DNA of 64,000 nt from Escherichia coli (GTDB lineage: Bacteria > Pseudomonadota > Gammaproteobacteria > Enterobacterales > Enterobacteriaceae). The position numbers were made by a program. Positions 27,301 to 30,300 of the stretch are shown piece by piece (positions within the stretch are counted from its first letter, which is position 1; the number at the start of each line of letters is the position of its first letter). The stretch is taken from the NCBI RefSeq assembly GCF_017348835.2, contig NZ_CP071375.1; one strand, given 5' to 3'.

Positions 27301-30300
27301 CCAACCGGCGAGCACAACAGCCCGCGCTCAAAGAGCTTCTTTGATGGTGTGAAGAAGTTTTTTGACGACCTGACCCGCTAACCTCCCCAAAAGCCTGCCC
27401 GTGGGCAGGCCTGGGTAAAAATAGGGTGCGTTGAAGATATGCGAGCACCTGAAAAGTGGCGGGGAGCACTCCCCGCCGTTGCTCTTACTCGGATTCGTAA
27501 GCCGTGAAAACAGCAACCTCCGTCTGGCCAGTTCGGATGTGAACCTCACAGAGGTCTTTTCTCGTTACCAGCGCCGCCACTACGGCGGTGATACAGATGA
27601 CGATCAGGGCGACAATCATCGCCTTATGCTGCTTCATTGCTCTCTTCTCCTTGACCTTACGGTCAGTAAGAGGCACTCTACATGTGTTCTGCATATAGGG
27701 GGCCTCGGGTTGATAGTAAAATATCACTCGGGGCTTTTCTCTATCTGCCGTTCAGCTAATGCCTGAGACAGATAGCCTCAAGCACCCGCCGCTATTATAT
27801 CGCTCTCTTTAACCCATTCTGTTTTATCGATTCTAATCCGGAAGACGCCTCGCATTTTTATGGCGTAATTTTTTAATGATTTAATTATTTAACTTTAATT
27901 TATCTCTTTATCGCAATTATTGACGACAAGCTGGATTATTTTTGAAATATTGGCCTAACAAACATTACCGACTGACAACAAATTAATTATTACTTTTCCT
28001 AATTAATCCCTCAGAAATCCTCACCTTAAGCTATGATTATCAGGGCTTAGGGGCACCCGTCAGCGCTTACAGCCGTCAAAAACGCATCTCACCGCTGATG
28101 GCGCAAATCCTTCTATAGATCGTAAAAAACGAATTATTCCTACACTATAATCTGATTTTAACGATGATTCGTGCGGGGTAAAATAGTAAAAACGATCTAT
28201 TCACCTGAAAGAGAAATAAAAAGTGAAACATCTGCATCGATTCTTTAGCAGTGATGCCTCGGGAGGCATTATTCTTATCATTGCCGCTATCCTGGCGATG
28301 ATTATGGCCAACAGCGGCGCAACCAGTGGATGGTATCACGACTTTCTGGAGACGCCGGTTCAGCTCCGGGTTGGTTCACTCGAAATCAACAAAAACATGC
28401 TGTTATGGATAAATGACGCGCTGATGGCAGTATTTTTCCTGTTAGTCGGTCTGGAAGTTAAACGTGAACTGATGCAAGGATCGCTAGCCAGCTTACGCCA
28501 GGCCGCATTTCCAGTTATCGCCGCTATTGGTGGGATGATTGTTCCGGCATTACTCTATCTGGCCTTTAACTATGCCGATCCGATTACCCGCGAAGGGTGG
28601 GCGATCCCGGCGGCTACTGACATTGCCTTTGCACTTGGTGTGCTGGCGCTGTTGGGAAGTCGTGTTCCGTTAGCACTGAAGATCTTTTTGATGGCTCTGG
28701 CTATTATCGACGATCTTGGGGCCATCATTATCATCGCATTGTTCTACACTAATGACTTATCGATGGCCTCTCTTGGCGTCGCGGCTGTAGCAATTGCGGT
28801 ACTCGCGGTATTGAATCTGTGTGGTGTACGCCGCACGGGCGTCTATATTCTGGTTGGCGTAGTGTTGTGGACTGCAGTGTTGAAATCGGGGGTTCACGCA
28901 ACCCTGGCGGGGGTAATTGTCGGCTTCTTTATTCCTTTGAAAGAGAAGCATGGGCGTTCTCCAGCGAAGCGACTGGAGCATGTGTTGCACCCGTGGGTGG
29001 CGTATCTGATTTTACCACTGTTTGCATTTGCTAATGCTGGCGTTTCACTGCAAGGCGTCACGCTGGATGGCTTGACCTCCATTCTGCCATTGGGGATCAT
29101 CGCTGGCTTGCTGATTGGCAAACCGCTGGGGATTAGTCTGTTCTGCTGGTTGGCGCTGCGTTTGAAACTGGCGCATCTGCCTGAGGGAACGACTTATCAG
29201 CAAATTATGGCTGTGGGGATCCTGTGCGGTATCGGTTTTACTATGTCTATCTTTATTGCCAGCCTGGCCTTTGGTAGCGTAGATCCAGAGCTGATTAACT
29301 GGGCGAAACTCGGTATCCTGGTCGGTTCTATCTCTTCGGCGGTAATTGGATACAGCTGGTTACGCGTCCGTTTGCGTCCATCAGTTTGACAGGACGGTTT
29401 ACCGGGGAGCCATAAACGGCTCCCTTTTCATTGTTATCAGGGAGAGAAATGAGCATGTCTCATATCAATTACAACCACTTGTATTACTTCTGGCATGTTT
29501 ATAAAGAAGGTTCTGTGGTTGGCGCAGCGGAGGCGCTTTATTTAACACCACAAACCATTACCGGACAGATTCGGGCGCTGGAAGAGCGCCTGCAAGGCAA
29601 ATTATTTAAGCGCAAGGGACGTGGTCTCGAGCCCAGCGAGCTGGGGGAGCTGGTCTATCGCTATGCCGATAAAATGTTCACCTTGAGCCAGGAAATGCTG
29701 GATATCGTGAACTATCGCAAAGAATCCAATTTATTGTTTGACGTTGGCGTGGCTGATGCACTTTCCAAACGTCTGGTCAGTAGCGTGCTGAATGCTGCAG
29801 TAGTAGAAGGCGAGCCAATTCATCTTCGCTGCTTCGAATCCACCCACGAAATGCTGCTGGAGCAATTAAGCCAGCATAAACTGGATATGATCATTTCCGA
29901 CTGTCCGATAGATTCTACGCAGCAGGAAGGTCTGTTCTCCGTGAGAATTGGCGAATGTGGCGTGAGTTTCTGGTGTACAAATCCACCGCCGGAAAAACCG
30001 TTCCCAGCTTGTCTGGAAGAACGGCGGCTTTTGATTCCTGGGCGACGTTCAATGTTAGGGCGCAAATTGCTTAACTGGTTTAACTCCCAGGGATTAAACG
30101 TAGAAATCCTTGGCGAGTTTGATGATGCCGCGTTGATGAAAGCTTTTGGTGCGATGCACAATGCAATCTTCGTTGCCCCAACGCTTTATGCATATGACTT
30201 TTATGCCGATAAAACTGTCGTAGAAATTGGTCGCGTCGAGAATGTGATGGAAGAGTACCATGCTATTTTTGCTGAGCGGATGATTCAGCACCCGGCGGTA

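What the first reader, a model, noticed from the sequence alone, without database searches (positions are those of the whole stretch)
27382..27780. hokC/mokC/sokC type I toxin-antitoxin locus appears uninterrupted
HokC (50 aa) and the overlapping mokC frame are intact, and the region downstream of hokC (27382-27484) is a short unique sequence with a hairpin, not an insertion element. From published work on chromosomal hok loci I recall that K-12 hokC is considered inactivated by an IS186 insertion just downstream of the reading frame. The IS-free arrangement here could therefore be a functional hok/sok system with its 3' fold-back element preserved.
Basis: partly seen in the sequence, partly recalled or inferred. 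Interest (0 to 1): 0.5.

Follow-up and report, generated by a model that had tools for sequence, protein, structure and literature searches.

The report
Intact IS-free hokC toxin–antitoxin locus
This is the ordinary, ancestral form of the E. coli hokC/mokC/sokC toxin–antisense-RNA locus, without the IS186 element that sits in the K-12 copy; it is complete, but it is also the majority form in E. coli and has already been described.

Summary
Between dnaJ and nhaA the window carries a complete hokC/mokC/sokC locus on the minus strand (about 27388-27798). HokC is identical to K-12 HokC and no insertion element is present.

K-12's IS186 sits inside the GC hairpin at 27458-27477, which is a perfect GGGG(N6)CCCC IS186 target. 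That insertion cuts the ORF off from the 3' fold-back element (fbi, 27424-27436) and the terminator.

All R1-type RNA elements are present here: tac/fbi end-pairing, ucb/SD-mok, dcb, the SokC hairpin-terminator and a TATAAT hokC promoter. The tac/fbi pairing co-varies across 39 hok loci.

The arrangement is not unusual. About 70% of 5426 complete E. coli genomes, and E. albertii, have it. An IS-free hokC (strain ECOR24) was studied by Pedersen and Gerdes in 1999 and reportedly gave no post-segregational killing or rifampicin activation. A CRISPRi screen suggests that even K-12 hokC may still be active.

Two caveats apply to this allele. The SokC -10 hexamer (CACTCT) is a family outlier, though it is shared with K-12. 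The Sok-target loop also lacks the YUNR U-turn because of a common polymorphism at 27690.

Verdict: real, intact, already known, low interest.

The parts
27793..27798 (-). hokC promoter -10 hexamer TATAAT, 5 nt upstream of the inferred +1. The -35 region is poor.
   Evidence: Read directly from the sequence. It is invariant in 10 E. coli strains. A -10-like hexamer sits at the same distance from the tac G in about 40 hok loci. The consensus scan missed it because of the weak -35.
27388..27787 (-). Inferred full-length hokC mRNA, about 400 nt
   Evidence: The 5' end is set by homology to the R1 hok +1 and to position 1 of the Rfam model. The 3' end is set by the terminator hairpin. The MFE is -164.5 kcal/mol with z=-5.4. 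Neither end has been mapped experimentally.
27776..27787 (-). tac element (mRNA nt 1-12, GGGUGCUUGAGG)
   Evidence: It pairs with fbi in the full-length fold and with ucb in folds of 335 nt or less.
27729..27736 (-). ucb (nt 52-59, AAGCCCCG)
   Evidence: It pairs with SD-mok in the full-length fold and with tac after truncation. The R1 control shows the same full-length topology.
27702..27707 (-). mokC Shine-Dalgarno region (nt 81-86, CGAGGC)
   Evidence: GAGG lies 8 nt upstream of the mokC AUG. It is sequestered by ucb in the full-length fold and by dcb in the truncated fold.
27485..27694 (-). mokC ORF (69 aa), in frame with hokC
   Evidence: K-12 annotates mokC with the same stop codon.
27680..27696 (-). 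Sok-target hairpin (nt 92-108). Its 7-nt loop CAGAACA spans 27685-27691.
   Evidence: It is homologous to the R1 loop CUAGUCC. This allele lacks the YUNR motif because of the variant at 27690.
27670..27674 (-). dcb (nt 114-118, GCCUC)
   Evidence: It pairs with SD-mok in folds of 335 nt or less. It lies in a block conserved in R1 and in the IncY plasmid hok.
27651..27679 (+). sokC promoter: -35 TTGACC (27651-27656), 17-nt spacer, -10 CACTCT (27674-27679)
   Evidence: Found by alignment to the R1 Sok promoter. The sequence is identical to K-12, where sokC is annotated starting 7 nt downstream. The -10 hexamer is a family outlier.
27686..27744 (+). SokC antisense RNA (59 nt, coordinates transferred from the K-12 annotation): a 9-nt single-stranded 5' tail followed by a hairpin and UUUUCU
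   Evidence: The fold gives -23.6 kcal/mol, z=-4.7.
27485..27637 (-). hokC ORF (50 aa toxin). Its SD AGGAG is at 27647-27651.
   Evidence: The protein WP_000809168.1 is the same in most sampled strains.
27458..27477 (-). GC hairpin just after the stop codon (nt 311-330). It is the presumed stop for 3' trimming and a perfect, unoccupied IS186 target (GGGG-AGCACT-CCCC).
   Evidence: The IS186 target motif comes from PMC5009759. The loop base at 27466 is nearly private to this strain.
27437..27457 (-). 3' UTR segment (nt 331-351) predicted to pair with the mokC start region (nt 92-113)
   Evidence: This is consistent with the title of Thisted et al. 1994, as listed.
27424..27436 (-). fbi fold-back element (nt 352-364, CUUCAACGCACCC)
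   Evidence: It forms 12 pairs with tac. The duplex energy is -17.9 kcal/mol, and 34 of 2000 shuffles do as well. Co-variation is seen across the family.
27389..27410 (-). Terminator-like hairpin (27393-27410) followed by UUUU (27392->27389), oriented for hokC and lying directly after the dnaJ stop codon
   Evidence: -22.5 kcal/mol. The scan did not list it because it has only 4 U.

Best explanation
This is the ancestral, uninterrupted allele of the chromosomal hokC/mokC/sokC type I toxin-antitoxin locus, and it most likely runs on the RNA switch worked out for hok/sok of plasmid R1.

1. A weak constitutive promoter (-10 TATAAT) makes an mRNA of about 400 nt.
2. In that full-length RNA, the 5' tac element pairs with the 3' fbi element. 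The ucb element covers the mokC Shine-Dalgarno sequence, and the 3' UTR covers the mokC start codon. The full-length RNA is therefore neither translated nor bound by SokC.
3. Slow 3' trimming back to the GC hairpin leaves an RNA of about 333 nt. It refolds into tac/ucb and SD-mok/dcb stems.
4. The refolded RNA is either captured by the short antisense SokC RNA and destroyed, or translated. Translation of mokC, then of the coupled hokC, yields the membrane-depolarising HokC peptide.

What is shown: the sequence identity, the complementarities, the family-wide co-variation and the conservation. What is inferred: the transcript ends, the processing, the SokC level and any killing.
For: Identity of the locus:
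- HokC is identical to K-12 HokC.
- Pfam HOK_GEF matches at E=5.5e-24, and Rfam RF01794 scores 119.8 bits.

Full-length fold:
- tac nt 1-12 pairs with fbi nt 352-364.
- ucb pairs with SD-mok.
- The mokC start region pairs with the 3' UTR.
- The experimentally studied R1-type locus gives the same topology in the same pipeline.

Truncated fold: RNAs of 335 nt or less switch to tac/ucb and SD-mok/dcb, as described for R1 in PMC9841398.

Co-variation of tac and fbi across 39 distinct hok loci:
- Five tac variants each have a matching fbi 50-65 nt after the stop codon.
- Cognate duplexes average -19.6 kcal/mol and non-cognate ones -14.9 kcal/mol.

Conservation:
- All elements are invariant in 10 E. 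coli strains from different lineages.
- The transcript is 98.0% identical to the E. albertii copy, against 93.3% for the adjacent 3' end of dnaJ.

SokC:
- The sokC promoter is identical to K-12.
- In K-12, mokC/sokC forms RNase III-cleaved duplexes, and sokC knock-down is deleterious.
Against: - By secondary citation, Pedersen and Gerdes 1999 found that the IS-free ECOR24 hokC gave no post-segregational killing and no rifampicin activation.
- The SokC -10 hexamer is CACTCT, whereas nearly all other family members have TAnnnT.
- The hokC -35 region is poor, and the consensus scan found neither promoter.
- The Sok-target loop of this allele lacks the YUNR U-turn that was decisive for fast pairing in R1.
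- The MFE fold of the truncated R1 control did not reproduce the published tac/ucb stem, so the truncated-state prediction is a weak test.
- HokC needs low-level A-to-I editing (9% in K-12) to gain its second cysteine.
- The high identity to E. albertii could reflect recent transfer rather than constraint.
Confidence: 0.8

Rival explanations
1. The locus is structurally complete but physiologically silent. It is a domesticated or attenuated relic that never produces enough HokC to matter, whether or not an IS is present.
For: - Published tests of IS-free chromosomal hokC (ECOR24), hokA and hokB found no post-segregational killing or rifampicin induction.
- The hokC -35 region is weak.
- HokC lacks the second cysteine unless its mRNA is edited, and editing is only 9% in K-12.
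- About 30% of genomes tolerate an IS186 in the 3' hairpin.
Against: - The transcript is far better conserved than its neighbours: 98% identical to E. albertii against 93% for dnaJ, and the ORF is 99.3% identical.
- All pairing elements are invariant in E. coli.
- sokC knock-down is deleterious in K-12.
- HokC is toxic when over-expressed.
Confidence: 0.3
2. The IS-free appearance is misleading. The locus is degenerate relative to functional hok loci, through point mutations in the ORF or regulatory RNA elements or through loss of the Sok promoter.
For: Three sequence features depart from the family norm:
- The Sok -10 hexamer is CACTCT.
- The target loop lacks YUNR.
- The GC-hairpin loop is GUGC rather than GUGA, a change seen in only about 21 records.
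Against: - The ORF is identical to K-12 and to most strains.
- The CACTCT -10 hexamer is shared by K-12, where SokC is expressed, and by E. albertii.
- The CAG loop allele occurs in 1902 of 5426 genomes and in E. albertii, and many intact family members also lack YUNR.
- The hairpin loop change costs only 0.7 kcal/mol.
Confidence: 0.05

Closest known systems
hokC/sokC of E. coli ECOR24 (Pedersen and Gerdes 1999, Mol Microbiol 32:1090)
   Same: It is the IS-free chromosomal hokC with its fbi element. The transcript is reported as about 330 nt (PMC3562002), which matches the roughly 333-nt trimmed form predicted here.
   Different: That locus was reported not to mediate post-segregational killing.
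hokC (gef)/mokC/sokC of E. coli K-12 MG1655 (b4412/b0018/b4413)
   Same: The position between dnaJ and nhaA is the same. HokC is identical, and so is the sokC promoter. Only 4 substitutions occur between the hokC stop codon and the inferred +1.
   Different: K-12 has IS186A inside the 3' GC hairpin, with a 6-bp ATCACT duplication. This separates the ORF from the 3' UTR, the fbi and the terminator. K-12 also carries the CUG (YUNR) loop allele.
hok/mok/sok (parB) of plasmid R1
   Same: The order of elements is the same, and so is the predicted full-length topology: tac/fbi, ucb/SD-mok, a GC hairpin after the stop codon, then fbi, then a terminator. The Sok promoter overlaps dcb in both.
   Different: - The toxins are only distantly similar.
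- mok is out of frame with hok in R1 but in frame here.
- tac/fbi is GGCGC/GCGCC in R1 and GGGUGC/GCACCC here.
- The R1 Sok -10 is TATCCT.
- The R1 target loop has a YUNR motif.
- R1 is plasmid-borne with proven post-segregational killing.
hok loci of IncY (P1-like) plasmids, e.g. p15648-1
   Same: They are about 75% identical over the whole transcript and have the same tac (GGGUGCUUGAGG) and the same kind of GGGG(N6)CCCC hairpin.
   Different: They are plasmid-borne and encode a 51-aa toxin. The Sok -10 hexamer is TAATCT, and the target loop contains a YUNR motif.

Membership tests
hok/sok (Hok/Gef) type I toxin-antitoxin family | Small Hok/Gef-type membrane toxin ORF | tested here: met
   Pfam PF01848 HOK_GEF matches at E=5.5e-24 over the full model, 1-42 of 42. 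The protein is identical to K-12 HokC. The NCBIfam Hok subfamily hit falls below its curated cut-off, 46.8 against 73 bits.
hok/sok (Hok/Gef) type I toxin-antitoxin family | Upstream overlapping mok reading frame with its own Shine-Dalgarno sequence | tested here: met
   The mokC AUG is at 27694, with GAGG 8 nt upstream, and the ORF is open through to the hokC stop codon. Translational coupling itself cannot be tested here.
hok/sok (Hok/Gef) type I toxin-antitoxin family | Leader RNA matching the curated covariance model | tested here: met
   Rfam RF01794 scores 119.8 bits against a gathering score of 59, covering model positions 1-157. The match is on the hok-mRNA sense strand.
hok/sok (Hok/Gef) type I toxin-antitoxin family | 5'-3' end pairing (tac/fbi) in the full-length mRNA | tested here: met
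   Twelve pairs form between nt 1-12 and nt 352-364 in the MFE fold. The R1 control behaves the same way. Across 39 loci, cognate duplexes average -19.6 and non-cognate ones -14.9 kcal/mol.
hok/sok (Hok/Gef) type I toxin-antitoxin family | ucb sequesters SD-mok in the full-length RNA; tac/ucb and SD-mok/dcb stems form after 3' truncation | tested here: met
   The complementarities are present, and MFE folds switch at 335 nt or less. One caveat: the truncated R1 control did not reproduce tac/ucb by MFE, so this is a test of pairing potential only.
hok/sok (Hok/Gef) type I toxin-antitoxin family | cis-encoded Sok antisense RNA with its own promoter and terminator | tested here: inconclusive
   The hairpin and U-tract are present, and the -35 hexamer is TTGACC with a 17-nt spacer. 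The -10 hexamer is CACTCT, only 2 of 6 consensus bases and a family outlier. The promoter is identical to K-12, where SokC is annotated and studied. Expression in this strain has not been tested.
hok/sok (Hok/Gef) type I toxin-antitoxin family | YUNR U-turn in the Sok-target loop (shown to matter in R1) | tested here: not met
   The loop is CAGAACA here and CUGAACA in K-12. The allele is common, at 1902 of 5426 genomes. Many intact homologues also lack YUNR, so this is not a family-defining feature.
hok/sok (Hok/Gef) type I toxin-antitoxin family | Post-segregational or rifampicin-induced killing | not testable with these tools
   The literature summary reports negative results for the IS-free ECOR24 hokC.
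IS186-interrupted hokC (K-12 'gef' type) | IS186 inserted in the GC hairpin 3' of hokC | tested here: not met
   The sequence is contiguous across 27458-27477. The empty site is shared with 3814 of 5426 genomes.

The most novel reading that the evidence does not exclude
The conserved 3' processing hairpin of hokC doubles as a perfect IS186 target. It has been hit independently at least twice in E. coli, once in each orientation and on different haplotypes. The resulting split, about 70% empty and about 30% occupied, might reflect recurrent selection to disarm, or to re-tune, an active toxin. In that reading, alleles like this one, with no U-turn in the Sok-target loop and a sub-optimal SokC -10 hexamer, are under looser antitoxin control and are conditionally toxic, for example under nutrient limitation.
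Probability: 0.1. Interest if true: 0.45.

Novelty: already known. Interest (0 to 1): 0.1.

Why it matters
It matters little as a discovery. The IS-free hokC is the common and ancestral state and has been in the literature since 1999.

The practical value is as a reminder that K-12 is the atypical genome at this locus. Most natural E. coli carry a complete hokC RNA switch whose physiological role is still unsettled. Such strains, rather than K-12, are the right background for testing what chromosomal hok/sok loci do.

Tried and rejected
- The primary papers were not held: Pedersen and Gerdes 1999, and Gultyaev et al. 2000. The statement on post-segregational killing and rifampicin therefore rests on a secondary summary.
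- The consensus promoter/terminator scan found neither the hokC promoter, the sokC promoter nor the 3' terminator. I located them by homology instead.
- The NCBIfam Hok models scored below their cut-offs. Pfam settled the family assignment.
- The MFE fold of the truncated R1 control gave the 5' metastable hairpin rather than tac/ucb. I therefore treat the clean switch seen for hokC as showing pairing potential, not proof.
- I considered whether the near-private substitutions at 27466 and 27452 damage an element, and rejected this. Position 27466 lies in the hairpin loop and changes the energy from -18.5 to -17.8 kcal/mol. Position 27452 removes one pair from a 20-pair helix and is shared with other strains.
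- Folds of intermediate length (345-351 nt) show tac pairing with nt 334-345. That helix is rich in G-U pairs and depends on this allele, so I did not pursue it.
- Counting IS186 orientation by junction queries gave 1275 and 1380 genomes. Their sum exceeds the roughly 1610 non-empty genomes, because junctions at other hok loci (one listed hit was a 'Hok/Gef family protein' at 88% identity) appear to cross-match. I use only the qualitative result, which I confirmed in ATCC 8739.
- A weak Hatchet ribozyme hit (E=0.91) at 28100-28176 is chance.
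Full report
**What is there**

The window is collinear with the start of the E. coli K-12 chromosome. It carries the thr leader at 12275, dnaK at 24246-26162, dnaJ ending at 27381 and nhaA at 28223-29389. Between dnaJ and nhaA, on the minus strand, lies a 50-codon ORF (27637->27485) that is identical to K-12 hokC. An in-frame upstream extension starting at 27694 encodes the 69-aa MokC, which differs from the K-12 protein by L2Q.

Pfam HOK_GEF matches at E=5.5e-24. The Rfam model RF01794 matches the leader from 27787 to 27635 at 119.8 bits, against a gathering score of 59. 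The best database match over 701 bp is E. coli strain F2_81, a pig isolate, at 100% identity.

**The IS-free claim**

In MG1655, IS186A (15387-16731) lies between dnaJ and hokC and ends 19 nt past the hokC stop codon. Aligning both K-12 flanks to the window places the insertion inside the hairpin GGCGGGGAGCACTCCCCGCC at 27458-27477. The K-12 flanks overlap at 27462-27473 and carry a 6-bp ATCACT duplication.

The hairpin reads GGGG-N6-CCCC, which is exactly the IS186 target motif defined in PMC5009759.

The 103-nt dnaJ-hokC spacer holds a second hairpin at 27393-27410. On the minus strand it is followed by UUUU, so it is a terminator oriented for hokC.

**Regulatory anatomy**

I mapped the elements by alignment to a genuine R1-type hok/sok locus (100% matches in many IncF plasmids; locus L003) and to a plasmid hok that is 75% identical (L004). 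They fall as follows:

| Element | Window coordinates | Note |
|---|---|---|
| hokC -10 TATAAT | 27798-27793 | 5 nt upstream of the inferred +1 at 27787 |
| tac | 27787-27776 | mRNA nt 1-12 |
| ucb | 27736-27729 | |
| SD-mok | 27707-27702 | |
| mokC AUG | 27694 | |
| Sok-target hairpin | 27696-27680 | |
| dcb | 27674-27670 | |
| hokC SD and AUG | 27651-27635 | |
| GC hairpin | 27477-27458 | |
| fbi | 27436-27424 | |
| Terminator | 27410-27389 | |

ViennaRNA folds of the 400-nt RNA give -164.5 kcal/mol with z=-5.4. In that fold tac nt 1-12 pairs with fbi nt 352-364, ucb pairs with SD-mok, and the mokC start region (nt 92-113) pairs with the 3' UTR (nt 331-351).

The R1-type control, folded the same way, shows the same full-length topology. 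This matches the mechanism described in PMC9841398.

When the hokC RNA is shortened to 335 nt or less, which is just past the GC hairpin, the MFE fold switches to tac/ucb and SD-mok/dcb. That is the published 'open' form. The size fits the transcript of about 330 nt quoted for ECOR24 hokC. The truncated R1 control did not give tac/ucb by MFE, so this second result shows pairing potential only.

**Family-wide test**

I scanned one genome per species with the conserved block that spans dcb, the Sok promoter and the SD. This returned 50 loci, of which 39 were distinct and intact.

Five tac variants each have their own complementary fbi, located 50-65 nt after the stop codon. Examples are GGGCGCCUGAGG with CCUUCAGGCGCCC and GGGUGCUCUGGA with AUCCGGGAGCACCC. 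Cognate duplexes average -19.6 ± 2.0 kcal/mol, against -14.9 ± 2.2 for non-cognate pairs. The window's duplex is -17.9, and 34 of 2000 shuffled UTRs do as well.

The window therefore meets the family's most distinctive feature, and that feature is supported by co-variation.

**SokC**

Transferring the K-12 annotation places SokC at 27686-27744 on the plus strand. It has a 9-nt free 5' tail followed by a hairpin and UUUUCU (-23.6 kcal/mol, z=-4.7).

Its promoter is TTGACC, a 17-nt spacer, then CACTCT. The -10 hexamer is the odd one out in a family where TAnnnT is the rule. However, it is identical in K-12 and in E. albertii. In K-12, mokC/sokC duplexes are cleaved by RNase III, and sokC knock-down is deleterious.

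**Allele-specific points**

Inside the transcript the window differs from K-12 at 27452, 27466, 27690, 27700, 27715 and 27773.

- Position 27466 changes the hairpin loop from GUGA to GUGC, at a cost of 0.7 kcal/mol. In my 10-strain sample only F2_81 shares it, and only 21 records match this 120-nt stretch at 99% or better.
- Position 27690 changes mokC codon 2 from CUG to CAG, and the Sok-target loop from CUGAACA to CAGAACA. This removes the 5'-YUNR U-turn that was decisive for rapid Sok pairing in R1 (PMC6562991).
- The CAG allele is nevertheless found in 1902 of 5426 genomes and in E. albertii. Many intact homologues also lack YUNR. It is a common polymorphism, not a lesion.

**How common is the arrangement, and is it conserved?**

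The empty site is present in 3814 of 5426 complete E. coli genomes. Using the 701-bp query instead gives 3791. The arrangement next to dnaJ also holds in E. albertii and in Escherichia sp. E1V33, so IS-free is the ancestral and majority state.

Across 10 strains all the pairing elements, the -10 hexamer and the ORF are invariant apart from one A6V change in an O55:H7 strain.

Against E. albertii the transcript is 98.0% identical and the ORF 99.3%, while the adjacent 300 nt of dnaJ is 93.3%. That argues for constraint, although recent transfer is an alternative explanation.

IS186 occupies the hairpin in both orientations in different strains. K-12 has one orientation, and ATCC 8739 has the other, which I confirmed from its annotation. 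Strain 203740 has the ATCC 8739 orientation on the CAG haplotype. So there have been at least two independent insertions.

**What is already known**

- K-12 hokC (gef) with IS186 disrupting the fbi, and the IS-free hokC of ECOR24, are both described in the literature that cites Pedersen and Gerdes 1999 (PMC3562002; PMC2654758).
- According to bioRxiv 10.1101/2025.08.07.668861, the IS-free ECOR24 hokC could not mediate post-segregational killing and was not rifampicin-activated.
- A CRISPRi screen in MG1655 found sokC knock-down strongly deleterious, and its authors argued that hokC may be functional even with the IS present.
- hokC mRNA is also A-to-I edited in K-12, at 9%. The UACG site at the Tyr47 codon (27499-27497) is intact here.

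**Verdict**

But the arrangement is the norm, it has been published and tested, and being intact does not establish R1-like killing. Novelty: already known. Interest: low.

Noticed in passing
window 27458-27477: The conserved GC hairpin after the hokC stop codon is a perfect, unoccupied IS186 target (GGGG-AGCACT-CCCC). In other E. coli genomes IS186 sits in it in both orientations: K-12 has one and ATCC 8739 (L063) the other. That implies at least two independent insertions at this spot.
   Followed up: partly
window 27690 (mRNA nt 98; Sok-target loop 27685-27691): mokC codon 2 is CAG (Gln) here and CUG (Leu) in K-12. The change removes the YUNR U-turn motif from the 7-nt Sok-target loop. The exact 32-mer occurs in 1902 of 5426 E. 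coli genomes and in E. albertii.
   Followed up: partly
window 27674-27679 (+): The SokC -10 hexamer is CACTCT, whereas almost all other hok-family Sok promoters have TAnnnT at the aligned position. All hokC orthologues share it, including K-12 and E. albertii.
   Followed up: partly
window 27388-27787 vs L015 (E. albertii): The hokC transcript is 98.0% identical between this E. coli and E. albertii, while the adjacent last 300 nt of dnaJ is only 93.3% identical. Upstream of the hokC promoter, the E. albertii sequence does not align with the nhaA side at all.
   Followed up: partly
window 27497-27499 (-): The Tyr47 codon UAC sits in a UACG context. This is the site reported to be A-to-I edited to Cys in hokC mRNA (9% in K-12, PMC12214031). 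The motif is intact here.
   Followed up: no
window 27635-27787 (-): The Rfam family named 'sok antitoxin' (RF01794) matches the hok-mRNA sense strand, from the leader's +1 to the hokC AUG. It does not match the strand that encodes SokC.
   Followed up: no
window 27485-27694 (-); L002 and L005-L012: RefSeq labels the 50-aa hokC ORF 'toxin MokC' in non-K-12 genomes and annotates neither the 69-aa mokC frame nor sokC. mokC is in frame with hokC here (the AUGs are 57 nt apart), whereas in R1 mok is out of frame (58 nt apart).
   Followed up: partly
window 27800-27820 and beyond 27904: Two of the sampled strains (PBP8 and M16807, which share a divergent haplotype) differ at 10 of 20 positions just upstream of the invariant hokC -10 hexamer. 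They stop aligning near 27904, so the region upstream of the promoter is a divergence or recombination boundary.
   Followed up: no
window 12275-12394, 17676-17718, 26173-26250, 46001-46053: Other Rfam matches above their gathering scores are the Thr operon leader, ES036 (CssrF), tpke11 (between dnaK and dnaJ) and ES003.
   Followed up: no
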